The notes: a model not told the origin generated them from the sequence alone. Counted from the stretch's first letter, positions 1,553-62,542 are shown. The stretch: 64,000 nt of DNA from Bilabrum cf. latius (GCA_965178125.1 OZ237740.1:1364001-1428000), one strand, 5' to 3'. A program made the numbers and translations.

Positions 1553-4207
1553 ATGAAGCGACTATGCTCGATTCTGTTGCTCCCTTTTATCGTTGAGCTT
1601 GGGTCAGCACGCACCTCCGTGGCATTCTAGGGCGGTGGGGCGCTGGGACACGCCGCAGCGTCGTATTTGCTATCCAACTTGCAGCTAGTTGCAAACGTCC
1701 AAGCGAATGCTACCGATGCTCAATGCCTTTCTGGTGGATATGACCTCTGCGTTACTGTTGGAAACACCTACTTGGCTCATCAGATTGCGGGCGTGCCTCT
1801 CAATCTGTCTACACTGGGCAGCGAAGCATTCGGCGTAGCGACAAACCAGAGTGGAACGACGCTTGTTCTGGCGGCATATGGTAACGCGTACATCAACAGC
1901 AGCGGGTTTAGCACAGAAGGGCCCGTGAACGGCGCCCTGTACGGGGCATTCGCAATCTTGGAATCGCTCGGATTCGGGTTTCTGCATCCGCTCGAGCCGC
2001 TGGTCCCCTCCGAGCTAGACTTAGCGGGCGCGAGGTTGGCAGGATCGTACGTGGACAAACCAGTCCACAGGCTTCGAATGTGGCACTATCACACTGAGCA
2101 CCCGCTGGAGCTGACCGACCTGCTGCAAGGCTTCAACGCGAGCGAATCGATCCATGTGACCTCGCGAGGCATAGGCGAGCGGCACCCGCAGGTTTACTTC
2201 GAGTCTTGGTCCAGCATGCTTCCCCAGCTCGAATCCTTCCTCGCCTGGCTGGTCGCGAACCGCCAGAACCACCTCGAGTGGGTCATGCTGCTGGACGGCT
2301 CGTGGTCCCAATACGGCCAGTCGAAGGAGCGCAAGGCGAGGTTCGCCACCATGGTGGGCATGGCGCACGCGTGGGGGCTGCAGGTCGGAGCAGACGCGCC
2401 CCTCGTCATGGTGCAGCAGCATGCATGGCACATGGCAGACGGCAGCGCCTCAGTAGAGGACCAGAAGCGTCAGGTCGCGGCGAGGCTGCAGTGGTACAGC
2501 GACGTGGGCTTCGACTACCTCAGCACGGAGAGCGGCTCCACCGAATTCTCCAACCCGGGGTGCCTACAGGAGCTCGCTCTCATGAACTACACGGCGAACG
2601 AGGCTAGCGAGGCATTCGGCATGCGCTCTTTCATCAAGGTGCACTGCTCCACGGACCAGACATGCCCCGATGTGCCGGACCCACGCACGGGCGAGCCGAT
2701 CAACTTCAACTTCTTGCCAGTGTACGCGGGATCCCGCCTCGGCGTTATGCCCCACCAGGTGCAGCTGTACTCGTTTGACGACCCCACTGCCAACACCTAC
2801 GGCAACCTGGATTTCGGGGACCTCTTCGACTTCGCGGTGTACGTGACCAACCAGACCGCGCCACCGCCCTCGCCCTCGCCCTCGCCCTCGCCCTCGCCCT
2901 CGCCTTCTCCGCCCCACAGTGCCAGACAGGGCCTGTCGGCGTCCATCGGGGGCCGTGACGTGGTGTGGCACGGCGAGACCGGCTACTGGGTGAACTACGA
3001 CATCGACGCCTCCCTGGCCCTGGGCGCCCTCTACGGCGAGCGGCGGCAGAGCGACCTGCGGAGGCTCAACCAGAGGACGGCGGCTGAGTCAGGCGGCACC
3101 ATCGACGGGCAGAACATCTTCGACTCGGGATGGGAGTGGGGCTACTGGCAGGGAGCCGTGCTCGCAGCCCGGGCGGCGTGGGACCCCGAGGTGGGGTCAT
3201 CCTCCCAGCCCGCCGCCTTCGCCGCTCTCTTCCAGAGGTCCATCGCCCGGACTTTGTACGGTGCCACGGCTGCGGGGGGTCAGGCAGGGGCTCAGATAGC
3301 CACGCAGGCGTTCTCGCAGATCGTGCAGGAGCAGAGAGCGGCACTGATCTTCGGGCAAGCGACGGCACCTAGCGGTAGGCGGCCGTCGGCCGCTCAGGAC
3401 GCATCCGTGTTGTACCGGAATGGGATGGCCTACCTCGCAGGACAGGACGCCTTCTCCTCCGTGCAGCAGCTGTTCGAGCCCAGCACCACCCAGCCGTACC
3501 GCGTATTCCTGTCCAACGTCACGGCCTCTGGCGGGGGCCCCTAGCCGGGATACCAGGAGCTTGACTCGATGCTGCGGCTGGTGGCCAACGCGACAGGCAG
3601 GCACCTAGAACTCGTGCGAGGCCTGGGAAAGTACGTCGATGCGGCCTCTCCCACTGCCGTTGCGCTGCAACAGGAGCTCGTTGATGCGTACAACGCCACG
3701 GCCATCCGTGCCGCGCAGCTGGTGGAGCTGTATGCCGCTGCTGCCGCCGAGTCCCTCGACAACGCCACCCGCGTGTCTCGGCTGGCTAGCGCGCTGCGGC
3801 TGACCCGCCAGGGGGCCGAGGTGGCCGCTCGCCGGGCTGCCGCCTACCGCGTGGATCGGCGCCGCATCGCCAGCTGGCGGGAGGGTCCCACGGCCTATGC
3901 CTACGGCTACCTGTGGACCTCTGCCACGGGATACTACTTGTGGAGGGACTTTGCGGAGGCTGCCAGGATGGTTTTCCCGCCTGCCAAGGGCCATGTGCTG
4001 CAGAGAGAGTCTCCGTGCTTTATGAACATTATATCTCCCGCTGACGTCGGGTTTGGGGACACGTGGCTCGAAGACCTGGCCGTGGTGCTGCGCGAGCTGG
4101 CGGATCTGAGCGGCGAGGACTGGGCCCAGGCCATCGGCGATTGCCTGCATGCTCCCTTGGCGGAGCCGCCCGTGCCTCCTCCCGGTGTTGTCCCGCAGGA
4201 ATGGTGA
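1553..4207 (+). CDS. Secreted ~884-aa uncharacterised protein, possibly hydrolase-like
   Basis: ATG 1553 gives the signal peptide MKRLCSILLLPFIVELGSA. In-frame TAGs at 1628-1630 and 3542-3544 join ORFs 1667-3544 and 3569-4207 in one frame, ending in TGA. Contains a (PS)n linker at ~2862-2910. Confidence 0.75.
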
Positions 4208-4308
4208 TTATATGGCACCGTCTGTGACGAGCAACTAAGCTACCGGGAGTAGAGCCGGTTGAGGCCCAGTCGCGCACGCTCCCGGCGGCAAGATCGCTGG
4301 GCGATCGC

Positions 4309-5217
4309 TCAGTGAACATCGCCCTTGCCTGATTCGCCACCATGCGATGCATGCTAAGCCGATGGTGTCGCGTTGGCTTCCACTAATTCTCCAGATGGCG
4401 CTGTCTCTTGCTGCGCCGGGCCGCTTCGGCTGATTCCGCTAGGCTCGGGACGTGCCGCGAAGCTTCCTGGCGCATTGTCGGCTGAGTCGGGACTCACGCG
4501 CAAGTTCGGTGTTTCTGAAGGAAGATTCCTTGCGAGGGATGACCCATTGGCTTGCACGGGCCGCGGTGCAAGGCCTCGGTGACCGGGAGCTACGACTCGC
4601 CCAACCCGCCTCATCACCTCAAGCTCGCGAAGGGCTCCCGCCCCAATTGGGCTAATGCTAGCGTTGCAAGAAACATCGAGCACGTCCAACTACCCAATTC
4701 GAACAATGACTGCGCACAGCCTCAAGCAAATGGCGTCGTCAATCTCACAATCAACCAAGCGAAGGATCCGCAGAGTCCCAGTAGTTGCGATGAGCTCGAG
4801 AACAGAGCTGATTGCGCCTCGCATGTCCCCAATGGAGCTCAGCGACACCTGGAGCAAGTGCTGGCACGTACTTAGAATGGAAAATAGAGTTACAAGCCCG
4901 GATACACTCATTGAGCTGCGACGGACAATGATACCTGAGATGCACTCTGGAGTTGCCTCGATCAGGTCGTACAGCTGCTCCAGTTGCTCAGGAAGCAGAT
5001 CAGTATCTTCAATACAAACTGTACATGGGTGATCAATCGACGCATTCCCAATAGATTCAACCAGCTTGCTAATGTCGCGCTCCCTTGGAGCTGCAACTGC
5101 GCTGGAACCCTGCGGTCGAGAGGCTCCGTTCTGAACTGTGGCAAGTGCATGCACCAGTGGAACGCCATCTGCGTAATAGCCCAAATTTTGCACGAATATT
5201 CTCACGCATACACCCAT
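4309..5217 (-). CDS. Leucine-rich repeat (RNI-like) protein; start uncertain
   Basis: ORFs 4690-5217 and 4354-4689 are in frame across TAG and end at TGA 4309-4311. LRR pattern 'LRILRLVDCEIDD...QLDVLDVSCNASIS'. Confidence 0.55.
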
Positions 5218-6878: not shown

Positions 6879-9800
6879 TCAGTGTTCGCCTTCGGCAGCT
6901 TCTTGCGGTGACTTCCCGGCCGATGATGCAGCGGCTTTTGCAGCGGCAGCATGCCAGGACTTTCCGCTGGCTGCTGCAGATGCTGCCCTCGCTGCGGCAT
7001 CGGGGCTGGGAGCCAGCTCTGCGGCTGAAACTCGGCTGGGCGCCTCAGGCCCATCCGACGGCCGCTCCACCATCACATGCCTCGCCTTGGACTCGTCAAA
7101 GGACATAGCCGGCCGAGAACCTTGCCCCTATCCTTGGCTCTAGCCCTGGCTCTAGCCGGGGCGGTTGCGGTTGCGGCCTTGCCTTCTGCCTCGGTGCGAG
7201 CCTCCGCCGTTGCGACCGGCGCCACCGCCATGCCCGCCCTCCCGACGGCCCCCGTGCTACGGGCGACGACCACCCTGCCCCCTGTGCCGGCCCCCGTGCG
7301 CCCCCCTGCCTCCTCCCCTGCGACCTCCCATGCCGCGCCCCCGGCCCGCGCCCTCTGACGCACCGTACGGTCCCATGCCGCCGGGGCCGAAGCCCATTCC
7401 GCCCATCATGGGGGGAACGCCGGGTTGGCCCATGCCCCCCCACTGCATGCCCCCGCCCAGCACAGGAGCGCCGGGCTGCTGATGTGGCTGACCCGCGCCT
7501 ACTGCACCGGGAGCTCCCGGGCCCATGCCGCCCTGCTGCATGCCCGCCACCCCCCGGGTGTTGCTCAGAAGAGCAGCGGCGACCATCGCGGGGGAGAAGC
7601 CCATCCCGGGGTTCATGCCCGGCATGCCACCGGCATACAAACCACCCCCGTGATGGGGCCCGCCCATGCCCATGCCCATGCCCATACCCATGCCCATACC
7701 CATTCCAAAGGGCATGTGGCCCGCGCCGGGGCCGGGCATCGCGCCGCCCATGCCACCCATGGGCGGCCCGCCAAATCCGGGGGCTCCGAAGCCGCCGCCC
7801 TGCGGGGCCATGGGCGGCGCCTGCCCCTGCCCCTGCCCGGCACCCTGCGGGACGAACGGCTTGGCGTCTGCCGACATGCCGCTGCTGGGGCTCGACGCGA
7901 ACCCGGCAGACATGCCCTGCGATATGCCCTGCGGTGCGGCGGTGACGCGCGGCCCGCTGGCCGGGGGTGGCGCCTGTCCCTCCCTCGGGGGAACAGCGGA
8001 CCACGCGCTCCTGGTGGACGGCAGCACGCCATTACCCACCTACATCGAGGGACTCATGCTGTGGCCCTGGCCCTGGCCCTGGCCCTGGCCCTGGTGCTGG
8101 AACTGCTGCTGCTGCTGCTGCTGCTGGCCAGTCACTGCGGCAGACCCCCTCGCGTCCGACAGCAGGGCGGGGCCACCGATTAGACCCATCCCCATGCCAC
8201 CACCCATATGGCCCAGACCCATGGGTCGACTATCCGTTGAGCTCGCCACGGAGGAGGACCCCGCTCCCACGGCCCCGAGGCCCTCCTTCTCCTTGCCCGC
8301 CGGAGTGCCCTGTCCGTCGGCAAGGGCCCCGATGGGGCCCGCTGCGCCTGGGGCCACGGGCTCGTCCACGGGCTTCCTGGCCGGTGAAGGGGCAGAGTCT
8401 CCCGGTCCCCACTGCTGCGACAGCGTGGGGGACACGCGGGGCAGTCCCTCGGCCGGCGTCTTGTTCCCTGAGGGCTGCCGGGCTGCGGCAGGGGCTGGCG
8501 CAGGGGCCGGCGCCGGCGCTGCGGCTGCGGCAGGGGCCTCAGCCGGTGCCGGGGCCGCTGCCGACGGTGCCGGGGCCGCCTTGGCCACGGCCTTGGGCTT
8601 GTTGCTGGCCGGCTGCTCTTCCTGGCCCTTGGGCGCTGCGGTCGCTGCCTTGGCGCGCACGACCTGCATGCGGGCCTTGGACGGCGGGCCAGCCTTCCCT
8701 GCGATGACCTTGGGGGCTCCTCCTCTCTGCGCCCACACGGACTTCTTGGCCTGTGCCTCCGCGCGGGCCCTCCTCTCCTCCCTCTTGCGCTCCTCCTCCG
8801 CGCGACGGGCCGCAGCCTCCGCGTCCACGGGTGCTTTCGAGGGGACGGCCGGAGAGGCCTTCTCCGCCGGTGCTGCTCCTGCTGCCTGGGCCACAGGCCC
8901 CTTCTGCTGCTGCTGCGCCGCCGCAGGCTCGGCTGCGTTCGTGGCCTGCTGCTTGCTCTTGCCCGCCTGCCCCACGGCCTTGGAGACCTGCGGCGTCTTG
9001 CGGAGCCCCGGGGAGGGCCGCGCCTGCGCCTTCTTCTGCGCGGCCGTCTGCATCGCAGTCACCCAGCGAGACGGAGGAGCGGGCGCAGCGGCGGGCGCAG
9101 GCGCGGGGGTGGCTGCCTGTCTTCGCTTCGCGTCGGGCTTGCCCTTGCCACGGCCATCCCGCGCCCCCTGCTGCTTCCCGCCCTTGGACCGACTGGACCG
9201 ACCCTCGGCCCCTGCCGCGGCGCCACCATCCCTGGCACCGCCCTTGTCCTGCTTCCGGCCCCTCCCCGCCCCCGCTCCAGATGCTCCCGCTCCCGATGCG
9301 CCGGCCCCCCGCGGGCCCGCCCTGGCAGTGGGCGCGGGCCGCCTGGCCCCCGGCCGCATGAAGCCGTCCTTGCCCACGCTCCCACCGCCCCCTGCGTACC
9401 CGCTTCGAGCACCCGTCCCCCCCGTGCTGGATCCACCCTCACCCCTACCGCCGTCCATGCGGAACACAGTCCCCGCGGGAGGCTGCTGGTGCCCCCAGGC
9501 AGAGGCCCCTGCACCCTCCCCCGCGCCATCACCCCCCTTGGACCACATGCCCCCTGCCGGCAACCCCTCGATGCTCCACGCCGGGCTGGCTGTGGAGCCC
9601 GTGACCCCCTCCACAGCCAGGTCCGTCACGTGGGCCAGCCCCCTCGCTGCCGTGTCGACCGTGTCCATCGCGGTCGTTGCGGCCTCGCACAGGCCCTCGA
9701 AGGCCTCGCCCAGGGCGTGCCTGGCGGTGGCAGGAGACAACTCTCCACCAGACGCTGGGGCGGCGGTGTCGAACGAAACCCCGATGCTACCGGGAGCCTC

Positions 9801-10385
9801 GGCGATGTCAGCAAACTCGCTCGAGATTTGCCCGGGCTCCTGCACGAGAGCGGATTGCTGCCAAGGGCCAGACTCGGCAACAAGAGCATCGCTCCATGAC
9901 CCACGCGAGGAGCTGAATGCCATCTCATCCGCGCTACCTGCGTGCTCATTGGACACGCTGCTATCATGAGATGCCGACGCGGATCCGCCAGCCAACAGGG
10001 AAGATCGCGAGGTTTTCTCGGTGTGGCGTGAAGTCTTTGACATAGCCAGGCCCCCCACGCTATAGTGGGAATATGTGCGTGCACCATTTTCCCTGCTAAA
10101 GGAGCGAACCGTAGCTTGCAGCTTGCTGTCACGGGAAAAGCCGGATTGCTGCGCTGCCGCCTCTTGCTTCGGAACACTACCATCCCTGCCAACCAGTGCA
10201 GTTACACGGCTTTGGATCTGTGCTAGAGTAGACACATCATCACTTCCTTCTGCAGGAGTGGCTTTCGCACTCGTAGATTCCTTGTTCTACCGTTCTGCTG
10301 CTTGTGCTTCCTGGCACTCATTCCAGGTCAGGATCGTCCTTGTATGGCGTCCAATAGCTGGAAACAGAGCCCTAGCGGCGTTCAT
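6879..10385 (-). CDS. ~1170-aa low-complexity protein with a PAM2-like motif and GM/RGG-rich C-terminus (probable PABP-interacting RNA-granule protein)
   Basis: ATG 10385. ORFs 8040-10235, 7257-8039 and 6879-7106 are joined in frame by TAGs, ending in TGA. 'GMSADAKPFVP' (~7848-7880) matches the PAM2 pattern, followed by RGG-rich sequence. Confidence 0.7.
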
Positions 10386-10480
10386 GCTGAGCGTAAGCGC
10401 TTAGGATTAGCAGACTAGGTAGATATTCAGTGATACAAGCGCACACAAACCGGGAAGGTAGCAAGGATGGACATCCCGCG

Positions 10481-15400: not shown

Positions 15401-15486
15401 CGAAGAATCGCATGGCGGCTGCGGCTGCGGATGCCTGTGCTACTCGAGCTGCAGCCTGAGCTTTGCGCCCACCAGCAACAGCAACA

Positions 15487-15534
<48 letters not shown>

Positions 15535-16328: not shown

Positions 16329-16475
16329 TTGTGATGTATGCTTGGCGGTATGCCTGCAAATTCTACTCAGAACGCAATACTACAAACAACAATCAACTGC
16401 AACTGTGAATTATAGCGTGTACCTTTTCCAGCTAAGGTCTTGTTTTGTCATGGAATCCTGCTCGTTTAAGAACGA

Positions 16476-25689: not shown

Positions 25690-25967
25690 TCCAGCTCGCC
25701 GCTTTGTGCAAGCGTTTCCGTGGCTCGAGCAGCAGCAATTTCGAGCACCACCAGTATCTGCCTCTACCTCTGCTGGATCTCCGATCAGGGCCGCCCAGTG
25801 CAAGAGTTATATTAAATTCAATGAACGAATGTCCACAGGCGCGTAATATGCTTACCTTGGCCCGTGATACCGCGGAAACTGTCGGCGCTTGTCCGGTCGA
25901 GGTCGCCGGTGGTGGTCGCAACAGGGTTGCATATTGCCCGAAGTGAAGCGCAGTATCCCTGCGTGCC

Positions 25968-50721: not shown

Positions 50722-51336
50722 TTACCGGTGCTTTGGCTTCCGGAAGAGCTGGTGGATCCCCCACTTCTTCTCCCTTGGGGGACGCTGCTTGAGGTACTGC
50801 TCCCATTGCTCCTCTTGCTCGCCCAAACCCTTCTCAATACGAGCTAGTCTCTCATCAAGGCGTTTATCGTAGGCATGGCCCTTCGGAGGCTTGGCTACCA
50901 TCGCCATCTGCTAGCGGTCCCAGGTAGGGTCCCAACCATCTGCAGAATCCTTCGACCACTGCCCATACTTCCCGTCCATGACTGCTTGCTTACGGACTCT
51001 TGCCCTCCGCACTGCACTGAGCTTTGGCTTTCGCCATTTCCCTTCCGTAGTCTTGTACGGCTTCACGTCAACCGAGGGCTCCTGCACCCTGGACTTTGTC
51101 ACCTGGGCTAGTGTCCTAGGTCTTCGCCTTCCGGCAAGCTTTGCATGCATTTCCATCTATTTCGGGGTCAACTTTCTGTATTCCAACGGCTAATCCTGCT
51201 GCAATGGAGCTTTGTAGTCTACATCCGGGGCAACTGCCTAGAAACTTGCTGAAATCACCCTACACGGTGAAATTAGTGGCCTAGAACTATGATGGAGGAG
51301 ACTGTGAGACCCTCGTACTAATGTTCGCCGCAGCAT
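50722..51336 (-). CDS. Mitochondrial ribosomal protein mL59 (MRPL25)-like
   Basis: TAG read-through yields the presequence-like MLRRTLVRGSHSLL..., then 'GKWRKPKLSAVRRARVRK' and 'KPPKGHAYDKRLDERLARIEKGL'. Four TAGs. Ends at TAA 50722-50724, with an in-frame TGA after two further codons. Confidence 0.7.
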
Positions 51337-51464
51337 AGGATACTGTAAGCGTACAGGAGGCGTCTATTTAGTTGGTGTTGCCATCGATCGTGTAAATATT
51401 ACGTGCTGTTTGGAAAACCAAACTATTCGCGGCAGGTTTGCATTTGAAAAGCAAAAGATAAGCC

Positions 51465-52594
51465 ATGTTTGAGGCCCGCCTGAACGATGCCGAGGTTCTG
51501 AGGAAGATTATCGATGCTATGAAAGACCTTGTCAGCGAGGCGAACTTGGATGTGTCCCCGGAAGGAGTTTCTTTGCAGGTAAGACAACGGATTGGTGCAA
51601 TTCAAATTTTGCGCCTGGATTGTCGAGCCAATTTGCTCATGCTGCCCCTTGGGATGGGTTCATATACCTGTGATATGTATATTATATACTTTGTGCATGT
51701 GGGGGCACGGCGGATAGCCGGCTAGGGGCATTTGAGTAGGGTGGACTGACGTTTTGAACAGCAGGCACCGGAAGCCTTTTTGATCCGCCTTGCCCGCTTC
51801 TTGCTCGATCCGTTTCCCTTCGCAGGCTATGGATTCTTCTCACGTTTCACTCGTGCACTTGCACATGGCATAGAACGCCTTTGACAGCTACAGATGTGAC
51901 AAGAAGATTTCCCTTGGTTTGAACCTCCAGAACCTCACCAAGATCCTCAAGTGCGCCAAGAAGGGAGATTCGGTGTCTCTCAAGGCCGAGGATGAGGGAG
52001 ATAGCATCAGCATCACGTTTGATAGCGAAGGTGAGACGCCTAATTGTGCATCCGGCAAAGCCCGGTGGCCGGCCATGTCGTGTATCTCGCAGCCCTTATG
52101 CCAACCTCTTTTCTGCCACCGCAGACGATGGTCGAGTGTCTGAGTTCGAGATGAAGCTCATGGATATCGACTCTGAGCATCTGGGCATCCCAGAAACCGA
52201 GTACAAGGTGGTGGTGGTGATGCCATCCGGCGAGTACTCGGGCATCATCCGCGACATGGCCACGATCGGCGAGACCTGCTCCATCCAGGTCAAGAAGGGA
52301 ACCATCGCGTTCGGTGTGGAGGGAGATTTGGGAACTGGGTCCGTTGAGCTCGCCGAGCGCGCACCCCCTGCCGACAAGCCCGATGCGGCCGCCGTGGAGA
52401 TCTCCATGGAGGAGGCCGTCGACCTGAGCTTCGCGGTGAGCTACCTGCAGCACTTCTCCAAGGGCTCCGGGCTGTCGAGCACCGTGTCGCTGTCCATGAG
52501 CCCCGGTGTGCCGTTGGTGGTGGAGTACCCTCTGAACGAGACCTCTTTCGTGCGGTACTACCTCGCACCCAAGATCGACGACGAGGAGGAGTGA
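51465..52594 (+). CDS. PCNA: Proliferating cell nuclear antigen; introns 51579-51825 and 52031-52124
   Basis: MFEARL...SLQ|AMDSSHVSLV..*NAFDSYRCD...KILKCA...FEMKLMDIDSEHLGIP...YYLAPKIDDEEE. In-frame TAG at 51871-51873. Ends in TGA. Confidence 0.97.
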
Positions 52595-52994: not shown

Positions 52995-55900
52995 TCAGTC
53001 GTCCGCCACGAAGCACCTCAGGATGTCAATCACGCGGATGCAACCCACCGGCCGCACACCGTCGTCCACGAAGTACAGTTGGTGGATCCGCGTGGCGGCG
53101 AGAGTGAGCACGACCTTCTGCAGAGGGTCCCGCAGCCTGCAGTAGATGCTCGGGTTCATCACGTCTGCCCCCTTGTCGATCTGCTTGAGGAAGCTCTGCA
53201 CAGGCAGCTGCAGCGCGCTGAAGTTGGCCCGCCGCGCGATGGTCTTGGCGTCGCTCAGAGACACGTTGGTGGCCATGGCCCCGTACTCGTCCACGATGGG
53301 GGCCGCCGTGCTGCCCGCGTCCCGCATGCGCCGCATCACGTCGATGGCCCGGTCGCGGAAGGTGCCCACGACCATACCGCTGCCCAGCCGCTGCCCCAGC
53401 CCCAGCTCCTCGATGCTCAGCTGTCCCAGGGGGCCCAGCATGTCCAACCGCGTGGCCAGGAACCTGATGACGTCAGCCTGGGTCACCAGCCGCACGATCC
53501 TCCCTTCGGCGTCCACGATCGGCACCGCGTGCACGCCCTCGCTCAGCACGCGGGCCGCGTACAGCAGGGGACAGCCGGACGGAAGCGGGCGGAAGGCCCA
53601 TGAGGGCGTGAAGGAGGACGGCGAGGGGGACCCTGCGCCCGAGTCCGCATCAGACCCGTGCTCCGAGCCGCCCTCCGAGGCAGCGGGGCTGCCCAGCGAG
53701 CCGCCCGAGTGCGCGGCTGGCCGCGGGCCCGAGGCATCTGCGCCGCCCTCCTCTTGCCCCCCCGCACTTGCGCCCGTCAGCACGGGGGCGGGTGCCCCGA
53801 TGGTGGACCCGTGCACGCGCCGCAGCGGGGACCCCGAGGTGGAGGCAGCCACGGACTGGGAGGGCCCGCCCGTCAGGTGCCCGGAGCTGCCCGCCTGCAG
53901 CGACTCGGAGAGCATAGAGGCGGCTGCACCAGTGCCGCCAGCCGCACCCCGGCTGTCCTGGGAAGCCGGCGGCTGCGTGCCCACGGACCAGCCCCCCTCA
54001 GAGGCGGATGACTCGGCCCTTGAGATGGACCCGTCCCTCCCCTCCTCACCACCCGCTGCTGCTGCTGCTGCTGCTGACGATGGGGCGCCCTCTCCTGTCT
54101 GCATGGGCGAGAGGAAACCGCTGGGGAGCCCCGAGGAAACCGCGCCTGTCCCTGCCGTGGCAGAACTCGAGCCTCCGTCCACGGACCCACCCCTCCGCCT
54201 GCGGAACACGTCCCGGATGGGCTGCCGGAAGAACCTCTGCTGGTGCGCGAGGGCCTCTCTGAGGTGCCCCACCCCCTGCAGCGAGGACTTCTTCTTGCTG
54301 AAGATGTCCAGCATGTACGAGAACACGTCCAGCAGGTGCACCACGCCCACGAAGCGCCCTGCCTCGTCGTCGTACACGGGCATAGACAGGATGGAGTGGT
54401 CAGACATGGTCTTGAGCACGCTCTCCACAGTGTCCGTCACCTTGGCCGTCTTCACGTGACCAGTCACTCGGCCGCCGCCAATCTCATTCACGCTCGTCAC
54501 ACTCAGTAGCCGCAAAACGTCTGCATTCCGGCCGGCAGACCCCAGGGAGGCGCCACTCATCGAACGCCCGATGGTGGTCGGCGCACCCATGGAGCCCCTG
54601 GACCGCCTCGACAGCACGGCCTCACCACCCCCCGCACTGGGCGGCAGCTGCAGAACCCATCCCCCCGAGGAGGCCCCGGCTCCCTGCGCGGCCCCCAGTG
54701 GGGGGCTGCCCCCCGCCGGCATCCAGAGCCCGTCCCTGGTGCCCAGCGCCACCGGCACCATGCTCGGGTCCACGGGGGCGCCCAGGACGGCGCCGCGCAC
54801 CGCCGCTCGAGCGGAACTTCCAGGCCGCGTGGCGACGGCCAGCTGGCTGTTCTCTGCCTGTCCCCTCTCCCCCGGGTCCTCCGGCGTGGCCATGCTCACC
54901 GCGGAGAGGCCGCGCGCCACGGCGTCCGCGTGGGAGGGACCCGCAGCTGTGGGCACGGCCTGCAGCAACCCGGAGCCGAAAGGGGCCTCTCCCTTGCCGC
55001 TGCCGGCGCCCTCGCGCGCTCCGGTCTCCTTCTGGCTACCACCCGCCTCATCGGGCCCGCCCTCCTCCCTCTGTTCCCCGCTCTTGGACAGCGGGCTGTG
55101 CCGGCGGCGGTGCGTGGGCGACCGCCCGTCCGCCCCCCCCCTGCCTGCCCCCGCCCCCAGGGGGCTGCCCCTGCGCACCGCCGCCGATCCGGCCACCGAT
55201 GCGCTGGAGAAGGCCCCCGCCTCCCCCCACCTGGACGGGCGCTCCCCCCCCTTCGCGGGGGGCTCAGTGCCCTTGGGCGGGGGTGTCCCCGCGGTGGGGG
55301 CGTCCTCCTGGGCCTTGCCATCATTTTCCAGGGCCAGCTGCGCGGCGCGGTGCTGGGCCTCGAGCCGGCTGGGACTGGGACTGGGGGCGGCGCCCCACTC
55401 GGCAGACCCCCCCCATTGCATCGCCCCGCCGAGGGGGGAGGGGGCGGGCGCGGCGCCCACCACGTCTCCCGCTGCCGCCGTCAGCACCCCGATGGCGTGC
55501 AGCCCCCTGCGCGCCTGCTGCTCGGTGATGGAGCGCGCGCACAGCTGCACCCCGTGGTGGAACACCCGGCACTCGTATCCACCGAACGGCCAGCGGAACA
55601 CCGCGGCGCCGTGCAGGCGGTCCCGCACCCAGAATCCAGACACGGTGCCGCCTCCGGCCAGCTGCACGGTGCCAGCGCCGTGGCGAGTGTCTGCCACCCA
55701 CTGTCCCTCGAATGTGTCCCCGCTGGCGTACACGATTGACCCCTGCCCGTGCCGCTTGCCCGCCACCCACTGCCCGTCAAACACCCCTGTCAGTGCCCAG
55801 TCGTCCGCGCTGCCGCTGCCCTCGGACGGCGGCGTGCCCGACCAGGACATGCCGCTAACAGCGGCTGCGGCGCTCATGGCAGAGGCGGGACCGCCTTGGG

Positions 55901-56510
55901 GAGGTGCCATGGTGCCATCGGCTCCGGGAACTCCAGCGCCTAAACTACCTGCAACGTACGTGAAGATCCAGCCACGTCCGCGACCGTGCCGGCACCCCCA
56001 CTACCACTCGCCGTCGTACAGCCTAAAACCTGTCCTAGCGTCACGCAGCATGCCTTTCCCGTGGGCTAGAAGTACAGAGGGCCTGGTTGCGCCCGTTGGG
56101 CTGTTGCTTGCACCTTCATCAGCTCCTTCCCCCACGTTGCCTGGCGCAGCCGAAGAGACCTCGGGGATCCTGGAACGTGGTCCATTGCCTCTTGGTGGGG
56201 GTGGGACTGGAAACGCTTCAGTACTTGCCGCTTCTTCGAACATCGGGGCACACCATGTGCGCGCTTGCTCCTTCGATTCTCCGTCGCCTTCCACGGGCAG
56301 CCAAGGGAGGTACTGCACCCGCGATTGCTGCCGCTCCAATACTTTCCACGTAGATGATTTTACGTCAAGGAGCGACAGTATGTTTGCTTTTACCTCGGCT
56401 GGGCTGGACCGCACCGTGCTACCAGCGTACTGCGCATGGGGGCTGCATCCGGCAAAGGAAACGTCCACGCTACGCTCTCCGGGAGCAGCACTGCCTGTTT
56501 TCATCGACAT
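52995..56510 (-). CDS. MORN-repeat plus CBS-domain (Bateman, AMPK-gamma/Sds23-like) protein, ~1170 aa
   Basis: MORN repeats 'YDGEW*WGCRHGRG', 'FDGQWVAGKRHGQGSIVYASGDTFEGQW'. CBS motifs 'ILSMPVYD..FVGVVHLLD', 'VHAVPIVD..LVTQADVIRFL', 'AAPIVDE..VSLSD', 'RIHQLYFVDD..GCIRVIDILR'. TAG at 56001-56003 joins the two ORFs. Ends in TGA. Confidence 0.8.
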
Positions 56511-56699: not shown

Positions 56700-58478
56700 T
56701 CAGTGTGTACTTCGCAACAAAAGGGCCATCACTTCGCCAACTGCGGCAGCAGCCGCTTCGGCAGACTCGATCAGTTTCGGAGCAGCCGCGGCATCGCTAG
56801 CACCACTGGCGCTGCTCGCGGCCCCAGCTTCTTCATCAGGGGCGCTGCCTGCACCCGTATCTGCACCTGCACCACCGCTACCGCCGCCCATGGAGCCGCT
56901 AGCCGTCTCCGTCCCATCCCCGGCAGGGACGTGCAGCACCGTCACCGCGGGCACATCGCTCTCGTCCCCGGCCGCGCGGGCCGCCTGAGCCGCCGCCTCC
57001 GACCCCCCGACGCACACGATCACCGTCGGAGTCGCCGGAGCTTCGACGCCCTCGGCCGGTACCGTCGCCCCAGCATTGGCACCGGGCACCGCCGCCGCCC
57101 TCCTCGCCTCCCTCACCAGCTGGGTCCGCCGGGGAACAGTGTCCCCGACGGCCACCTCTGGGGCAACCAGCAGGTCGCTCGTCACACCCGTGCTCAGCGC
57201 GGCTAGCACTGCGTCGGCCACGGCGCGAGTGTCCTTCCCGTGGCTGTCGCTGAGGACGAGACACCGGCCCCGGCCCGCTGCCAGGGGCGCACTGCCCTTG
57301 TCCTCGCTCTTGCTGCCGGCTGCCTCCCCGGCCACCGCCCGTCCAGAGGCTGCTGCTGCTGCTGCTGCTCTTTCTGCGGCCCAGCCGGCCACTGCCCCCG
57401 CCATCAGTGTCTCCAGCGACACTTCCCCCTCCAGCGCACCCCCGCTCTCCCCCTTCCCCTTCCCCTTCCCCTTCCCCTCCTCCCCCAGGTCGAAGCCTCC
57501 CCCCGTGATCATCTCGAAGAGCATGCAGTACCTCCTTGACAGCTCCACCACCAGGTCACGGGGGGCGGCAGGGACGTCAACGTCCTTGTAGGGGTCGCAT
57601 CGCTCCTTGTACCACAGCCGCAGGAACTCCTTGTCCACATTGGCCGGGCTCTTGCCCTCCTCCATGCGTGCCTCGTAGTCCTGCGCCAGCCAGTAGCGGC
57701 TGCTGTCCGGCGTGTGGATCTCATCCACGAGCACGACCCTGCCCGTGGAGGGGTCTCGGCCCAGCTCGTACTTGGTGTCCACCAGCAGCAGGCCCCTCTC
57801 CAGCGCCTTCTTCTGCCCGAACTCGAACAGCCGCAGCGCCGCCGCGCTCGCCTGGTCCCAGTCGCCCTGCGACATCCAGCCCTCCTTGACGATGTCGGCG
57901 GCGCTGATGGGGCGGTCGTGCTCGGCCTCCTTCGTGGTGGGAGTCAGCAGCGGATGATCCAGCCTCTGGTTCTTCACGAGGCCTTCCGGGAGCTCATGGC
58001 CGCAGTACGACCGCACGCCGCGGTTGTAGTGCGTCCACATCGAGGTCGAGGTTGAGCCTGTGATGAACCCTCTGACCACGAATTCGATCGGAAATACCTC
58101 ACACTTCTTAACAATCGCCAGGTTTGGGTGAGGGCTCGCTACTATGTGGTTCGGCACGATGTCTTTGGTCTGTTCGAACCACCAAAGGCTAACCTGATTC
58201 AAGACCTGCCCCTTGTACGGCACACAGGTCAGGTTCCGGTCGAACGCACTGAGCCGATCAGTGGCAACGAGGACAACGTGATCACCAATATCATAAATGT
58301 CTCGAACTTTACCAGTTATCTTGGTACCAAGGCCAAGCGAGGTCGCAGAGATCACGCGACCGGAATCGAGCCGCTGCTACGCAGCTTTCTCGTACTTTCC
58401 TGGGTCTTTTGCCGACTGAACATCGACACCATCAGGAATAGCACGAGCTACTGCGGAGTCAGTCGCTGAACCACTCAT
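56700..58478 (-). CDS. purC: SAICAR synthetase with a degenerate PurE-like C-terminal extension
   Basis: 'GKVRDIY', 'TDRLSAFD', 'KGQVLNQ', 'PIEFVVRGFITGS', 'LVDTKYELG', 'DEIHTPDSSRYW', 'DKEFLRLWY'. ATG 58478 is reached through one TAG. Ends in TGA. Confidence 0.95.
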
Positions 58479-58770: not shown

Positions 58771-60605
58771 ATGCAAGCGCCGTCAAACGGATCTAGTGCT
58801 GTGGCTGCGTTGCCATTAAGCTCAGACCGCGACTCAGCGGGCGCCCTGGCCCTTGCACGCGATCATGCCGACAAGCCGGAGCATGAGTGCGGCGTGTTTG
58901 CCGTCTACGGCTCGCCTAACGCCGCCCGAACTATTTTCTTTGCATTGTTCGCGCTATAGCATCGCGGACAGGAGAGCGCGGGGATCGCTACGTCTCATCA
59001 CCATACGTTTCACGTGAAGCGAGGCATGGGGCTTGTTTCGCAGATTTTCTCCGAGACTAGCATGTCTGCACTCACGGGAAGGATGGGAATTGGCCACACG
59101 CGCTACTCGACCGCCGGCTCGTCGAGCATCGGCAACGCACAGCCATTTTTGCTCGAGACGGACCTCGGCCAGATTGCTGTGGCCCACAACGGGCAGCTCA
59201 CTCGAGTCAAGTCCCTGCGGAGGCAGCTCATGCGGAGGGGCACGGGGCTATACACCTCGACGGACAGCGAGGTCATCGCCCAGCTGCTCGCGCGGCCAGT
59301 AGGGGCCAGCAAGCTGGCGCTGGGCTCCATCGCGATGGAGACGGAGGACGAGGACGAGGACGAGGACGAGGGGGCTCACGCGGGAGCAGGTGCCAAAGGG
59401 GCAGGGGCAGAGGCAGGGCCCCCGAGCAAGAAGAAGGCAAGGACCGACGAGTCCGCAGCTTGGCCCGATGACCCCGGGGCGGGCCCCCTCTCCCACGCGG
59501 AGGGCCACAAGCAGGCGCAGGAGCTGGGCGACCGGATCGCGGCCCTCATCCAGCGCGCCGAGGGGGCCTACTCGTTCGTGGTCATGTCCAGGACGGCCAT
59601 CTTCGGGGCCAGGGACAGGCTGGGCCTCAGGCCGCTGTGCATTGGGCAGCGGACGAACGAGGACGGCAGCAAGAGCTTCATGTTCGCGAGCGAGTCGTGC
59701 GCCCTTGGCACAGTGGGGGCCCACTTCGTCAGAGAGGTCGTCCCGGGGGAGATCGTGACCATCGACCGCACCGGGGTGTCCTCCAGGTACGGGCTGGGGC
59801 TCGAGCTGCAGGTCAAGGTGCCCCGCGCGCTGTGCGTGTTCGAGTACGTGTACTTCGCTCGGCCCGACTCGCTGATGGAGGGGCAGCTGGTGCACGCGGT
59901 GCGGCAGAGGCTGGGGGCAGCGCTCGCCAAGGAGAGCGCGGTGGCCTCTGCCGACATCGTGTCGGGCGTGCCTGACTCGAGCATCGCGGCGGCGATCGGA
60001 TACAGCATGGAGAGCGGCAAGCCCTACACGGAGGTGTTCTGCAAGAACAGGTACATCGGTCGCACCTTTATCCAGCCGGACGACACCCTCAGGAAGAACG
60101 CCATCCACCTCAAGTTCAACGCGCTGGCGCACAATCTCGAGGGCCGCTCGCTGGTGCTGGTGGACGACAGCCTGGTGCGGGGGAACACCCTCCGCAAGCT
60201 GGTGCCCATGCTGCGCGAGGCGGGCGCCCGGGAGGTGCACATCCGCATCTCCAGCCCCCCGCTGCGGCACCCCTGCTACATGGGCGTGGACATCGGGTCC
60301 TACGAGGAGCTCATCGCGCACCGTGTCAAAGACGTGGATGCCATCCGGAGGCACATTGGGGCGGACTCGCTCGCCTACCTCTCCCTGGACGCCATGCTCG
60401 GGGCGGTTAGGGAGGGCATCAGCGACCAGATCTCGTCGGGGCAGGAGCATCCACCGGGGGAGGCAGGCGCACCGGCCGCTGCTGCCGCTGCACCCGAACG
60501 CACCGAGTCGCCGAGCATGCTGCTGGCCTCCAGTGGGGTGCCCCCCGTGCCCGTGCCCGTGCCCGCCGCAGGCAAGGCGGTGGAGGTGGAGGCCGGGCAC
60601 GGTGC

Positions 60606-60638
<33 letters not shown>

Positions 60639-61101
60639 TTCTGCTGCTGCTGCTGCGTCCTCGGCTGGGGGCGCTCCCGCCGAATCGGGAATGGTGGAGG
60701 CCGTGGGCAGCAAGCGGGGCCGGTCTCGCTCCGGGTCCGTGCACGTGCTACAGGGCGATGCGGTAGCCATCGCGGAGGGGGACCAGAAGGGTGAGCTTGG
60801 CCCGCTCGTGGCGCAGGAGGGGGCGGGCGGAGAGGGCCAGGGCAACGGGGCCGGGCCCAAGATGATGCAGTCGCCGCCCAAGCTGCTGGGGGCGACCACG
60901 GCAGGCGCGGCGCCCGGTTCCGCAGGGAAGTCTCTCCGGCTGGCGGGCCAGTCGTCCTCCCCCGCGCTGCGGCCTAAGAGCGGCATGCTGAGCCCCACGG
61001 CTACTGCGACGGTGCCCCCGCCCCCTGGAGGGTACGGCAAGCTGGATCATTGCTCAGCTTGCTTCACGGGCAAGTATCCACTGCCTGTGGAAGAGTGGTG
61101 A
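58771..61101 (+). CDS. purF: Amidophosphoribosyltransferase (GPAT), propeptide and [4Fe-4S]-type
   Basis: Propeptide ending 'KPEHE|CGVF', then 'L*HRGQESAGI', 'IGHTRYST', 'AHNGQL', 'CVFEYVYFARPDS', 'RYIGRTFIQP', 'VDDSLVRGNT', 'PCYMGVD', 'CSACFTGKYP'. Ends in TGA. Confidence 0.97.
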
Positions 61102-61450
61102 GGTGGAGAACTGCCAGTGATGGAGGCGGGTGCGGTGCCTAGGCTGGTCGTGGCGGCAGCCGCGAGAGGGAGCGGCAGGAAATGAGCGAACTAGGCCGGC
61201 TTCAGAGTGCCTGCGTCCTGTTATATACATATCAAATGCGTGATCAAATCGGTATGCCCGCCCGGCAAAATCGGTGACCGCCGACTGCACCAAGCCGGAA
61301 GAGCACGTTCGAATTTGCGACAAACGACAAGCCGAAACGTAGCTTCAAAAGTGATACCTTGTGCTACAGTTGCACCTTGTTGTATGCTACGTCTGATTGC
61401 ATAAGGCAAGCCGATCCATTCTTGTATTTGCAACACATTCACGGGCTGCG

Positions 61451-62542
61451 ATGGCGTCCTGGTGGGACCGATACAAGCAGCGGTTTTGGAGTACGATGGA
61501 TATGTGCGGCCCGCCGTCATGGAGGTATCTTGGAACAACATAGGCATAGTTGCAAGCTGCACGTGATGCTCCGAGCTCAACACGGGCAAAGCAGATGCTC
61601 GCAGCTGTCTGCCACCCTGAAACTGGGGAGGAACTTCCACTGCCGTTCCGCATGAGCGCTCATGTCCCCATGAATACAGTCCTATTGGTAGGAATGCTCT
61701 CTAGCCGCAGCGTTGCTGGCACCGCTCTGTGGCAAGTCGCCAACAGCGGCTTCAACGCGCTGCAATTCTACTACAACCGGTCAAAGACGAATCACGTGTC
61801 AGACGAGCGGCTTGCCGGCAGTTTCCTCTGCGCCACGGCTGCCGCTGTCGCAGTAGGATACTCGCTGCGGTCCTGGGAGCTGTCCCAAGTGGCACTGGCC
61901 CGGGGCTCTCCAAGCCCGCTAGTGCGCGCGGTTGGTCTATTCGTGCCCTTCGTGGCGGCTGCTGCCTCCAAGCCGCTGCAAATCGGTATCATGCGCTCCG
62001 ATGAAGTCACCAAGGGCGTCCGCATCCTGGATGCACCGGCGGCAGGCAGCACTGGCAGCCAATCCGAGACTTCCAAGAAGCGCGACCCGGCGGCACCCAC
62101 CCCTGGGTCCCTCGCCCCCATGGAGGGGGTGGGCCCCTCCAGGGTGTGCGGTGCGGCGGCCATCGGGACCACCATCGCGACCCGGGTGCTCTACCTAGCC
62201 CAGCCCATGGTGCTGCCCCCATTGCTCTTCGCGTGGCTGGACCAGCGGTCGTCGTGGTGGCAGGGGCTGGCTCGAGGAGGCACGGTGGCGAGAGGGCTGC
62301 ACTTCGGGCTGAGAGTTGGCATCATCGGGCTGCAGTCGGCCGTAGCCACGCCCATGTGCGTGGCCCTGTTTGACCCTGTGCAAGCCATGCCCGTGTCCTG
62401 GCTGGAGCAGAGCGTCAGGGAGGACGTCCGGGAGGCGCGCAGGCAGCGAGCGCGCTTCGGGCACGAGGGCAAGGATCTGCCGGAGGAGACAATCCGCCGC
62501 GCCGAGTCTGAGTCTCCGGTGTATTTCTTCCGTGGTATTTGA
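61451..62542 (+). CDS. SFXN: Sideroflexin (mitochondrial tricarboxylate/serine carrier family)
   Basis: ATG 61451 via two TAGs. 'HPETGEELPLPFRMSAHVPMN', 'WQVANSGFNALQFYYNRS', 'VPFVAAAAS..IGIMRSDEVTKGV', 'VYFFRGI'. Ends in TGA. Confidence 0.9.

What the first reader, a model, noticed from the sequence alone, without database searches (positions are those of the whole stretch)
1553..62542. Non-standard nuclear genetic code: UAG encodes glutamine
Seen: TAG sits in frame at positions where homologues have a conserved Gln. Examples are PurF L[TAG]HRGQE (58957-58959; family motif LQHRGQ), GH13 amylase VY[TAG]ILTDRF (40301-40303; family IYQxxTDRF) and PurL GMDD[TAG]DIDLY (47155-47157). It also interrupts essential PCNA (51871) and occurs about 21 times in one K+ channel gene. 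Reading TAG as sense fuses the fragmented ORF track into about 24 non-overlapping genes with sensible starts (signal peptides, a mitochondrial presequence). Established: UAR=Gln is common in ciliates and some other protists, but UAG-only reassignment is rare (e.g. the fornicate Iotanema). Inference: this may be a further independent lineage.
Basis: partly seen in the sequence, partly recalled or inferred. Interest (0 to 1): 0.93.

Follow-up and report, generated by a model that had tools for sequence, protein, structure and literature searches.

The report
UAG read as glutamine, nuclear genes
This GC-rich protist chromosome piece uses the normal stop codon TAG as an ordinary amino-acid codon, most likely glutamine, inside its genes, which adds a probable new lineage to the few organisms known to have changed the genetic code in this way.

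Summary
The finding holds. In 17 gene models (16,834 codons) TAG is in frame 98 times. TGA and TAA are never in frame, although both are common in the off-frames.

Spliced transcript contigs from two runs of two other studies match the window letter for letter. They keep TAG at seven checked sites, including exon 2 of PCNA. This argues against assembly error, RNA editing, introns and pseudogenes.

Glutamine is the best-supported meaning:
- PurF column: Q in 110 of 116 homologue residues.
- Amylase column: Q in 101 of 120.
- TAG fills the Q slots of a [G/S]Q repeat.
- The log-likelihood gap to the next residue is 7 units, but from only five columns.

That column is Trp in 109 of 120 homologues.

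TAA is not a sense codon: 0 were seen where about 19 were expected. 16 of 17 models end in TGA.

The nearest named relative, from one PurL tree, is the bicosoecid Cafeteria. Five literature searches found no nuclear UAG reassignment reported in stramenopiles.

No tRNA(CUA) gene or eRF1 gene could be examined, because no whole genome is held. I rate this a new member of a known kind of code (UAG=Gln, UAA kept), in a new and GC-rich lineage.

The parts
58771..61101 (+). PurF (amidophosphoribosyltransferase) coding sequence of 776 codons, ending in TGA. It has one in-frame TAG at 58957-58959. A 5' UTR intron lies at 58631-58755.
   Evidence: Translation. PDB PurF matches down to E 4.8e-118, with the TAG aligned to Q of LQHRGQE in 4 of 4 alignments shown. 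Q in 110 of 116 homologue residues. The intron joint is seen in X5 and X6.
38975..40396 (-). GH13 alpha-amylase coding sequence of 473 codons, ending in TGA. It has one in-frame TAG at 40301-40303.
   Evidence: PDB fungal-type amylases, E 1.4e-107. The column is Q in 101 of 120 residues among 150 representatives.
43456..48130 (-). PurL (FGAM synthase). Exon 2 is 43456-47654, the intron is 47655-47796 and exon 1 is 47797-48130. In-frame TAGs lie at 44809-44811, 47155-47157 and 48065-48067. The gene ends in TGA.
   Evidence: The splice joint and all three TAG sites are covered by X5 record 18 and X6 record 23 with 0 other letters.
48400..50119 (-). Adenylosuccinate lyase. Exon 1 is 49416-50119, the intron is 49217-49415 and exon 2 is 48400-49216. 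There is no in-frame TAG. The gene ends in TGA.
   Evidence: Pfam ASL_C 6.5e-44 and Lyase_1 1.4e-19. Joint 49216>49416 in X5 and X6. Codon counts.
51465..52594 (+). PCNA of 262 codons in three exons: 51465-51578, 51826-52030 and 52125-52594. The in-frame TAG is codon 54, at 51871-51873 in exon 2. The stop is TGA at 52592-52594.
   Evidence: Both GT..AG joints are seen in X6 and the second also in X5, in contigs that span the TAG with no other letters.
52995..56510 (-). MORN-repeat and CBS-domain protein of 1171 codons, ending in TGA. The in-frame TAG is at 56001-56003.
   Evidence: Pfam CBS 2.3e-22 and MORN 3.6e-10. The TAG site is covered by X5 record 21 and X6 record 26 with 0 other letters.
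56700..58478 (-). PurC (SAICAR synthetase) of 592 codons, ending in TGA. The in-frame TAG is at 58377-58379, in the N-terminal extension.
   Evidence: Pfam SAICAR_synt 1.3e-66..
61451..62542 (+). Sideroflexin, ending in TGA. In-frame TAGs lie at 61541-61543 and 61547-61549.
   Evidence: Pfam SFXNs 2.8e-51. The columns are variable at the first TAG and E 13, Q 6, D 4 of 25 at the second. Both sites are covered by X5 record 22 and X6 record 28.
28943..38553 (-). Slo/BK-type K+ channel. The transmembrane part is 37498-38553 (2 TAG) and the RCK gating-ring part is 28943-37156 (2737 codons, 19 TAG, ending in TGA). An unmapped intron probably joins the two parts.
   Evidence: Pfam Ion_trans 6.7e-11, Slo-like_RCK 3.5e-32 and BK_channel_a 3.3e-18. 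PDB BK channels align to residues 4-318 and about 1780-2080 of one reading frame. That frame contains TAGs but no TGA or TAA.
17164..25803 (-). Open frame of 2879 codons encoding a low-complexity protein. It has 32 in-frame TAGs, no TGA or TAA, and ends in TGA.
   Evidence: Under the standard code it breaks into pieces of at most 368 aa.
12474..16385 (-). Open frame of 1303 codons with 13 in-frame TAGs, ending in TGA.
6879..10385 (-). Protein of 1168 codons, rich in G, Q and P, with 6 in-frame TAGs. Those at 7128, 7140 and 7152 occupy the Q positions of a [G/S]Q dipeptide repeat. The gene ends in TGA.
41022..43187 (+). Membrane protein of 721 codons with 7 in-frame TAGs, one of them two codons before the TGA stop.
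1553..4207 (+). Protein of 884 codons with a hydrophobic N-terminus and 2 in-frame TAGs (1628, 3542), ending in TGA.
26310..28841 (+). Protein of 843 codons that looks like a coiled coil, with 4 in-frame TAGs, ending in TGA.
50722..51384 (-). Weakly mL59-like protein of 220 codons with 5 in-frame TAGs. It is the only model that ends in TAA.
   Evidence: Pfam Mitoc_mL59 E 0.0016, below the curated cut-off..

Best explanation
The window is nuclear DNA of a GC-rich eukaryote with few introns, whose nearest named relative is the bicosoecid stramenopile Cafeteria. In this organism UAG has been reassigned from stop to sense and is read as glutamine. UGA does nearly all the terminating, and UAA is kept out of coding sequence.

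Shown here:
- UAG sits in frame in mature, spliced mRNA of essential and conserved genes.
- It occurs up to 32 times per gene.
- It is about as frequent in frame as out of frame.
- Where it can be aligned, it behaves like the organism's ordinary Gln codons.

Inferred, not shown:
- Decoding is by a dedicated tRNA-Gln with anticodon CUA. This is one base change from tRNA-Gln(CUG), which reads CAG, by far the commoner Gln codon here (671 CAG to 131 CAA).
- The organism's eRF1 has lost recognition of UAG but still recognises UGA, and presumably UAA.
- A CUA anticodon cannot read UAA, which would explain why only UAG changed.
For: (1) In 18 coding segments (17 models, 16,834 codons), in-frame TAG = 98, TGA = 0 and TAA = 0. 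The off-frames hold TAG 89 and 106, TGA 223 and 274, TAA 16 and 31.

(2) One BK-channel reading frame carries RCK1 homology at residues 4-318 and RCK2 homology at about 1780-2080, with TAGs in between.

(3) X5 and X6 are contigs from two studies other than that of the genome-like runs. They skip five introns exactly at GT..AG borders and show no other letters across 43400-62600. Listed pieces or joints cover seven TAG sites: PurL x3, PCNA, MORN/CBS and SFXN x2.

(4) Homologue columns: PurF Q 110 of 116; amylase Q 101 of 120; SFXN second site E 13, Q 6, D 4 of 25.

(5) Summed log-likelihood over five columns: Q -10.4, R -17.4, W -17.7.

(6) Calibration: mean Q frequency is 0.41 at TAG columns, 0.36 at the 101 true Gln columns and 0.02 elsewhere.

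(7) TAG fills the Q slots of a [G/S]Q repeat at 7128, 7140 and 7152.

(8) With CAA/CAG = 131/671, about 19 TAA would be expected if TAA were also Gln, and 0 were seen. In-frame TAAs just upstream of starts lie in stretches with GC 0.44-0.61 and GC3 0.33-0.61, against GC3 0.59-0.90 in the coding models; the ranges overlap for the weakest models.

(9) 16 of 17 models end in TGA. PurF ends at the family's conserved C-terminus.
Against: - The amino-acid call rests on five alignable columns from four genes, and only two of them are strongly Gln.
- The PurL column at 47155 is Trp in 109 of 120 homologues and Gln in 1. The three closest relatives, including Cafeteria, have Ala there.
- The PCNA column is S or V, and the first SFXN column is variable.
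- Residues next to TAG do not tell Q from other residues.
- The window holds no tRNA gene and no eRF1 gene, and no whole genome is held. The decoding machinery is therefore entirely inferred.
- TAA as a working stop rests on one weak gene model.
- Two genes have TAG 1-6 codons before their TGA, so some termination at UAG cannot be excluded.
- The tool labels X5 'RNA? (probably DNA)' and X6 'RNA?'. I call them transcript-derived only because of the spliced joints.
- The TAG sites of PurF and PurC are not covered by any listed X5 or X6 piece.
Confidence: 0.85

Rival explanations
1. TAG is a sense codon but stands for a residue other than glutamine, such as Trp, Glu or Arg.
For: The PurL column at 47155 is W in 109 of 120 homologues. 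The second SFXN column has E 13 against Q 6 of 25. Only five columns could be scored.
Against: The PurF column has Q 110, N 5, S 1 and no W, E or R. The amylase column has Q 101, with E 2, R 2 and no W, of 120. Log-likelihoods are Q -10.4, R -17.4, W -17.7 and E -18.7. Mean W frequency at TAG columns is 0.18, against 0.63 at true Trp columns. TAG sits in the Q slots of a [G/S]Q repeat.
Confidence: 0.06
2. Both UAA and UAG are reassigned to Gln, as in the classical ciliate, dasyclad and hexamitid code. On this view TAA is simply too rare to be seen in a GC-rich genome.
For: 16 of 17 models end in TGA. The only TAA-terminated model is weak, and a further stop follows its TAA two codons later.
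Against: There are 0 in-frame TAA in 16,834 codons against 98 TAG. Scaling by CAA/CAG (131/671) predicts about 19. TAA is not rare in the DNA overall: 137 and 132 on the two strands, and 16 and 31 in the off-frames of coding regions. In-frame TAAs lie directly upstream of starts, including one codon before the conserved PCNA start, in stretches of non-coding composition.
Confidence: 0.04
3. UAG has two meanings: sense inside genes and stop near the 3' end of some mRNAs, as in the context-dependent codes of Condylostoma and the karyorelict ciliates. This would be compatible with the main explanation for internal UAGs.
For: Three TAGs lie within the last 6 codons before TGA in two genes: the BK channel at 28961 and 28946, and the 721-codon gene at 43179. 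At 0.58% TAG per codon I expect about 0.7 such TAGs in the last 7 codons of 17 genes (my arithmetic).
Against: Every model with a homology-defined C-terminus that I checked ends at TGA (PurF; PCNA). The excess is small. It is equally well explained as former TAG stops that are now read through to a nearby TGA. No 3'-end data were available.
Confidence: 0.08
4. The code is standard. On this view the TAGs are assembly or sequencing errors, edited sites, intron content, or the genes are pseudogenes.
For: None found. One TAG inside the ORF first listed for adenylosuccinate lyase does lie in an intron at 49217-49415.
Against: Four runs from three studies show no other letters over 43400-62600. The spliced contigs keep TAG in exons. 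TGA and TAA are wholly excluded from the same frames. Frames of 2737 and 2879 codons open for TGA and TAA cannot be non-coding. The genes affected include PCNA and four purine-synthesis enzymes.
Confidence: 0.01

Closest known systems
Nuclear code of the fornicate Iotanema spirale (UAG = Gln, UAA kept as stop). Sources: passages of PMC11687900 read; PMC5304391 seen only as title and abstract start in the listing.
   Same: Only UAG is reassigned, the new meaning is Gln, and it is a non-ciliate eukaryote.
   Different: It belongs to a different supergroup: Metamonada, against an apparent stramenopile here. The window is 64% GC and uses TGA almost exclusively as its stop. Here the evidence includes genomic DNA.
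UAG = Gln in Protocruzia tuzeti and in two phyllopharyngean ciliate lineages (PMC11687900, passages read).
   Same: The same code table: UAG = Gln with UAA not reassigned. These are regarded as independent recent events.
   Different: They are ciliates, an alveolate phylum known for code changes. No such case was found for stramenopiles in five literature searches.
Genetic code 15 (TAG = Gln) as used by crAss-like phages (PMC9523058, abstract start in the listing). That NCBI labels table 15 'Blepharisma' is my recollection.
   Same: The same codon table on paper.
   Different: Those are phage genomes in bacterial hosts. This is a eukaryotic nuclear genome with spliceosomal introns.
UAR = Gln codes of many ciliates, dasycladalean green algae and hexamitid diplomonads (NCBI table 6). 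The taxon list is recalled. PMC5304391's abstract start speaks of at least 13 coordinated UAA+UAG changes.
   Same: A stop-to-Gln change involving UAG, with UGA as the main terminator.
   Different: TAA is not used as a sense codon here: 0 of 16,834 codons.
Other UAG-only changes: UAG = Leu in an uncultured rhizarian and UAG = Ser in the green alga Scotinosphaera (PMC11687900, passages read).
   Same: UAG is uncoupled from UAA.
   Different: The amino acid differs. Leu and Ser fit the columns here poorly: there is no L in the five columns, and S is 1 of 116 and 1 of 120 in the two strong columns.

Membership tests
UAG-only = Gln nuclear code (table-15-like; Iotanema type) | UAG occurs in frame inside bona fide, expressed protein-coding genes. 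| tested here: met
   98 in-frame TAG in 16,834 codons of 17 models. Seven sites are retained in spliced transcript contigs from two runs.
UAG-only = Gln nuclear code (table-15-like; Iotanema type) | UAG columns correspond to Gln in homologues. | tested here: met
   Q is 110 of 116 in PurF and 101 of 120 in amylase. Q is the best residue by 7 log units over five columns. Q frequency at TAG columns is 0.41, against 0.36 at true Gln columns. Only five columns were scored, and one of them (PurL) is Trp in most homologues.
UAG-only = Gln nuclear code (table-15-like; Iotanema type) | UAA is not a sense codon. | tested here: met
   0 in-frame TAA where about 19 would be expected if it were Gln. In-frame TAAs upstream of starts lie in low-GC stretches outside the coding models.
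UAG-only = Gln nuclear code (table-15-like; Iotanema type) | UAA and UGA both still terminate translation. | tested here: inconclusive
   UGA ends 16 of 17 models. UAA ends one weak model (mL59-like), and another stop follows two codons later.
UAG-only = Gln nuclear code (table-15-like; Iotanema type) | A tRNA-Gln gene with anticodon CUA is present. | not testable with these tools
   The window holds no tRNA gene and no whole genome is held.
UAG-only = Gln nuclear code (table-15-like; Iotanema type) | The eRF1 N-domain is altered so that UAG is no longer recognised. | not testable with these tools
   There is no eRF1 gene in the window and no genome to search.
UAR = Gln code (table 6) | Both UAA and UAG occur in frame as Gln codons. 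| tested here: not met
   TAG 98 and TAA 0 in 16,834 codons.
Context-dependent stop/sense codes (Condylostoma, karyorelict type) | The reassigned codon also serves as the terminator at gene ends. | tested here: inconclusive
   No model needs TAG as its stop. Two genes have TAG 1-6 codons before TGA. No 3'-end or ribosome data were available.
Stramenopiles, bicosoecid-related (placement of the organism) | Its proteins group with bicosoecid orthologues in trees. | tested here: inconclusive
   One gene only. In the PurL tree the window groups with Cafeteria (P0008) and two unnamed metagenome proteins, with support 0.84, inside a eukaryotic clade. Identity to Cafeteria is 66%. There is no rRNA in the window. 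The closest PurF, SFXN and amylase relatives carry no taxon name.

The most novel reading that the evidence does not exclude
This may be the first nuclear genetic-code change in stramenopiles. It would be an independent and fairly recent UAG-to-Gln reassignment in a Cafeteria-related, 64% GC heterotrophic flagellate. In such a genome, capture of UAG by a mutated copy of the tRNA-Gln(CUG) that reads the dominant Gln codon CAG would explain why UAA was left untouched.

Three observations would be its footprints:
- TGA has become almost the only terminator.
- TAG is rarer in conserved enzymes (0 to about 0.5% of codons) than in fast-evolving low-complexity proteins (about 1%).
- TAGs sit a few codons before TGA in two genes, which may be fossil stops.

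The stretch is held by sequencing runs of several studies, so material for testing may exist.
Probability: 0.55. Interest if true: 0.8.

Novelty: new member of a known kind. Interest (0 to 1): 0.75.

Why it matters
Nuclear code changes are rare outside ciliates. Cases where UAG and UAA part company are rarer still. The 2024 paper I read (PMC11687900) lists only Iotanema, Protocruzia, two phyllopharyngean lineages, one rhizarian, Scotinosphaera and one oligohymenophorean ciliate.

A further case in a new supergroup, and in a GC-rich genome, would add an independent data point on how stop codons get captured. It bears on tRNA anticodon mutation versus eRF1 change, and on the role of base composition.

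There is also a practical consequence. Any annotation of this genome under the standard code breaks genes that contain TAG into fragments; 16 of the 17 models here do. Proteins predicted from it for public databases will be truncated.

The stretch turns up in DNA and transcript runs of several studies. Material for proteomic and tRNA tests may therefore be obtainable.

Tried and rejected
- Whole genome: none is held. No genome-wide code inference, tRNA(CUA) search or eRF1 inspection was possible.
- The window has no tRNA gene and no Rfam match, so it holds no suppressor tRNA and no rRNA for placement.
- The search for related loci in metagenome contigs with the closest JGI PurF relative (P0152) returned 80 loci. 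The best reached only 54% identity and P0152's own contig was not among them. I learned nothing about the relatives' code.
- The listing of cluster members gave no taxon name for the closest PurF, PurL, SFXN or amylase relatives. Only Cafeteria was named.
I dropped that question.
- Composition of residues next to TAG did not discriminate. The share of Q or TAG neighbours is 0.077 for TAG, 0.089 for Q and 0.079 for W.
- PDB alignments of the BK channel added no informative TAG column. One TAG lies outside the aligned block and one lies opposite a shifted Pro.
- The second PurL TAG (44809) lies in an insertion that is gapped in 91 of 120 homologues.
- The look-up of sequencing runs listed no holder on record as RNA. 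I infer the transcript nature of X5 and X6 only from the spliced joints.
- No listed X5 or X6 piece covers the PurF or PurC TAG sites.
They say nothing about habitat or relatives.
- I considered pyrrolysine or selenocysteine-type recoding and programmed readthrough. I rejected both because of the number of sites: 98, with up to 32 in one gene.
- I did not ask for paper supplements. Those of PMC11687900 and PMC5304391 may list further UAG = Gln taxa that I did not see.

Full report
**What the window is.** The 64 kb are 56-69% GC and carry eukaryotic nuclear genes:
- PCNA
- a Slo/BK-type K+ channel
- sideroflexin
- a MORN/CBS protein
- a fungal-type GH13 amylase
- four purine-synthesis enzymes: PurL, adenylosuccinate lyase, PurC and PurF

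Introns are few and short, with GT..AG borders. The window holds no tRNA gene and no Rfam family. No whole genome is held for it.

**Is TAG really in frame?** Yes.
- With TAG read as sense, the long frames run uninterrupted. Examples are 2879, 2737, 1481 and 1303 codons.
- Under the standard code the same frames fall into pieces.
- I set up 18 coding segments belonging to 17 gene models, 16,834 codons in all. Nine of the genes are supported by Pfam or PDB homology. The others are supported by length and third-position GC.
- In frame there are 98 TAG, 0 TGA and 0 TAA.
- In the two off-frames of the same DNA there are 89 and 106 TAG, 223 and 274 TGA, and 16 and 31 TAA.

TAG is therefore not avoided at all in the reading frame, while the other two stop codons are excluded completely.

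- PurF 58957
- amylase 40301
- PurL 47155
- PCNA 51871, which is codon 54 in exon 2
- 21 TAGs in the channel gene (19 + 2)

In the channel, PDB BK structures align to residues 4-318 (RCK1) and about 1780-2080 (RCK2) of one frame. The TAGs between those blocks must be read through for the protein to exist.

**Not an artefact.** I laid the contigs of four public runs on 43400-62600.
- X1 and X2 carry the same organism label and come from one study. They may be the source of the assembly. They are colinear with the window.
- X5 and X6 come from two other studies and carry other organism labels. Their contigs skip five segments exactly at GT..AG borders on the gene strand:
  - PurL 47653>47796
  - lyase 49216>49416
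  - PCNA 51574>51822 (X6 only)
  - PCNA 52028>52123
  - PurF 5' UTR 58630>58756
- That is the mark of spliced mRNA. The tool itself labels X5 'RNA? (probably DNA)' and X6 'RNA?'.
- No run shows any other letter, insertion or deletion anywhere in the stretch.
- Listed pieces or joints of both X5 and X6 cover seven TAG sites: PurL 44809, 47155 and 48065; PCNA 51871; MORN/CBS 56001; SFXN 61541 and 61547.
- No listed X5 or X6 piece covers the PurF or PurC TAG sites.

It comes out in favour of TAG.

**Which amino acid?** I translated with X at TAG and aligned against homologues.

| Gene and TAG site | Homologue residues at the column |
|---|---|
| PurF 58957 | Q 110, N 5, S 1 of 116 (120 sequences, 4 gaps); Q in 4 of 4 PDB alignments shown |
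| Amylase 40301 | Q 101, F 10, and 9 others, of 120 (150 representatives, 30 gaps); Q in 2 and F in 3 of 5 PDB alignments |
| SFXN 61547 | E 13, Q 6, D 4, T 1, R 1 of 25 |
| SFXN 61541 | variable |
| PurL 47155 | W 109, R 4, A 3, F 2, Q 1, H 1 of 120; the three closest sequences, including Cafeteria, have A |
| PurL 44809 | lies in an insertion, gapped in 91 of 120 |
| PCNA 51871 | S in 4 and V in 1 of 5 alignments shown |

Summed over the five scored columns, with a pseudocount of 1, the log-likelihoods are Q -10.4, R -17.4, W -17.7 and E -18.7.

As a calibration I looked at the 101 columns where the window has an ordinary CAG or CAA. There the homologues show Q with mean frequency 0.36. At the TAG columns the figure is 0.41, and elsewhere it is 0.02. 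For Trp the figures are 0.18 at TAG columns against 0.63 at true Trp columns.

Independently, three TAGs (7128, 7140, 7152) occupy the Q positions of a [G/S]Q dipeptide repeat in a protein that has plain GQ repeats elsewhere.

Glutamine is thus well supported. The number of informative columns is small, and I keep 6% for another residue.

**UAA and UGA.**
- TAA never occurs in frame. If it were Gln and used in the CAA:CAG proportion (131:671), about 19 would be expected beside 98 TAG.
- My frames were delimited by TGA and TAA, so I checked the upstream side. Eight of 17 models have TAA as the nearest upstream in-frame stop. The stretches beyond those TAAs have GC 0.44-0.61 and GC3 0.33-0.61, against GC3 0.59-0.90 in the models, so the ranges overlap only for the weakest models. 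In PCNA the TAA lies one codon before the conserved start.
- TAA is therefore a feature of non-coding DNA here and not a sense codon.
- 16 of 17 models end in TGA.
- The one TAA-terminated model is a weak mL59-like gene, and another stop follows two codons later. That UAA still terminates is plausible but barely documented here.

**Does UAG ever stop?** Nothing requires it. Two genes do carry TAG 1-6 codons before their TGA. That is slightly more than the 0.7 expected. It could reflect residual termination at UAG, or former TAG stops that are now read through to a nearby TGA. I leave 8% for a dual meaning.

**Pattern of use.** TAG makes up about 11% of the presumed Gln codons (98 of 900).
- In the conserved enzymes it runs from 0 to about 0.5% of codons. 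PurL exon 2 has 2 in 1398, PurF 1 in 776, the lyase 0 and SFXN 2 in 364.
- In long low-complexity proteins it is near 1%: 32 in 2879 and 13 in 1303.
- The weak mL59-like model is the outlier at 5 in 220, about 2.3%.

This fits neutral CAG-to-TAG drift after the reassignment. That reading is an inference.

**Mechanism.** The points under 'Shown here' in Best explanation are what the data establish. The rest is inferred from what is established for other stop-to-Gln lineages:
- A tRNA-Gln with anticodon CUA does the decoding. It is one base change away from tRNA-Gln(CUG).
- The eRF1 no longer recognises UAG.
- A CUA anticodon cannot pair with UAA, which gives a simple reason for a UAG-only change in a genome whose Gln codons are mostly CAG.

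None of these parts lies in the window.

**Who is it?**
- The best named PurL hit is Cafeteria roenbergensis at 66% identity.
- In a FastTree of 121 PurL sequences the window groups with Cafeteria and two unnamed metagenome proteins. Support is 0.84, inside a eukaryotic clade.
- Cafeteria's genome is about 70% GC with 1.67-1.89 introns per gene, and its nuclear genes were annotated without any mention of a variant code. The one non-standard code the paper names is mitochondrial (passages of PMC6972860).
- Closer unnamed relatives exist. A PurF at 79% identity is P0151. I could obtain no name or DNA for them.

Placement as a bicosoecid-related stramenopile therefore rests on one gene and is tentative.

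**Comparison with what is known.** I read passages of PMC11687900. According to them:
- UAG-only = Gln is reported for Iotanema spirale, Protocruzia tuzeti and two phyllopharyngean lineages.
- UAG = Leu is reported in a rhizarian and UAG = Ser in Scotinosphaera.
- The same table is used by crAss-like phages (PMC9523058, abstract start only).

Five full-text searches combined UAG, glutamine or genetic code with stramenopile, bicosoecid, Bigyra, Cafeteria or heterotrophic flagellate. They returned no report of a nuclear reassignment in stramenopiles. The library lacks most subscription journals, and I saw no supplements.

The code itself is therefore known. The lineage and the GC-rich setting appear to be new.

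**Verdict.**
- The interpretation (UAG = Gln, UAG only) is supported at about 0.85.
- The PurL example should be dropped.
- Lineage independence is likely but needs proper placement of the organism.
- I class it as a new member of a known kind, with interest 0.75.

Noticed in passing
window 43456-61101: Four de novo purine-synthesis genes (PurL, adenylosuccinate lyase, PurC, PurF) lie within 18 kb. PCNA, a MORN/CBS gene and a weak mL59-like gene lie between them. In an unnamed relative, the PurL (P0007) and PurF (P0155) proteins both list a longest contig of 33,307 bases. They may therefore be linked there too, which is unusual clustering for a eukaryote.
   Followed up: partly
window 28946-28963 and 43179-43187: TAG codons sit 1 and 6 codons before the TGA stop of the BK-channel gene, and 2 codons before the TGA of the 721-codon gene. 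They may be former TAG stops now read through to the next TGA, or a sign of residual termination at UAG.
   Followed up: partly
window 7120-7160 (- strand): A [G/S]Q dipeptide repeat in which three of the six Q positions are written TAG and three CAG.
   Followed up: yes
window about 20700-21300 (- strand): A very long Ala-Pro dipeptide repeat, well over 100 units, lies inside the 2879-codon open frame. (GQ)n and (GM)n tracts lie in the 1168-codon protein at 6879-10385.
   Followed up: no
window 59337-59420: Contig depth jumps to thousands in all four runs. Many contigs break or join here. The site is a short acidic (Glu/Asp-coding) low-complexity stretch inside the PurF insertion, so the motif is evidently repeated many times in the genome.
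   Followed up: no
window 37157-37497 (- strand): The K+ channel is split between two reading frames, the transmembrane part and the RCK part. The junction, presumably one or more introns, and the pore and selectivity-filter segment were not located.
   Followed up: no
whole stretch 51400-61300: Runs of nine studies hold the same sequence or part of it. At least three coded organism labels carry most of its words. The organism may live alongside other cultured protists. I did not pursue the origin of any run.
   Followed up: no
cluster of P0008: The 90%-identity cluster of Cafeteria PurL includes a protein deposited under a Symbiodinium label. This hints that Cafeteria-like flagellates contaminate some algal assemblies.
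   Followed up: no
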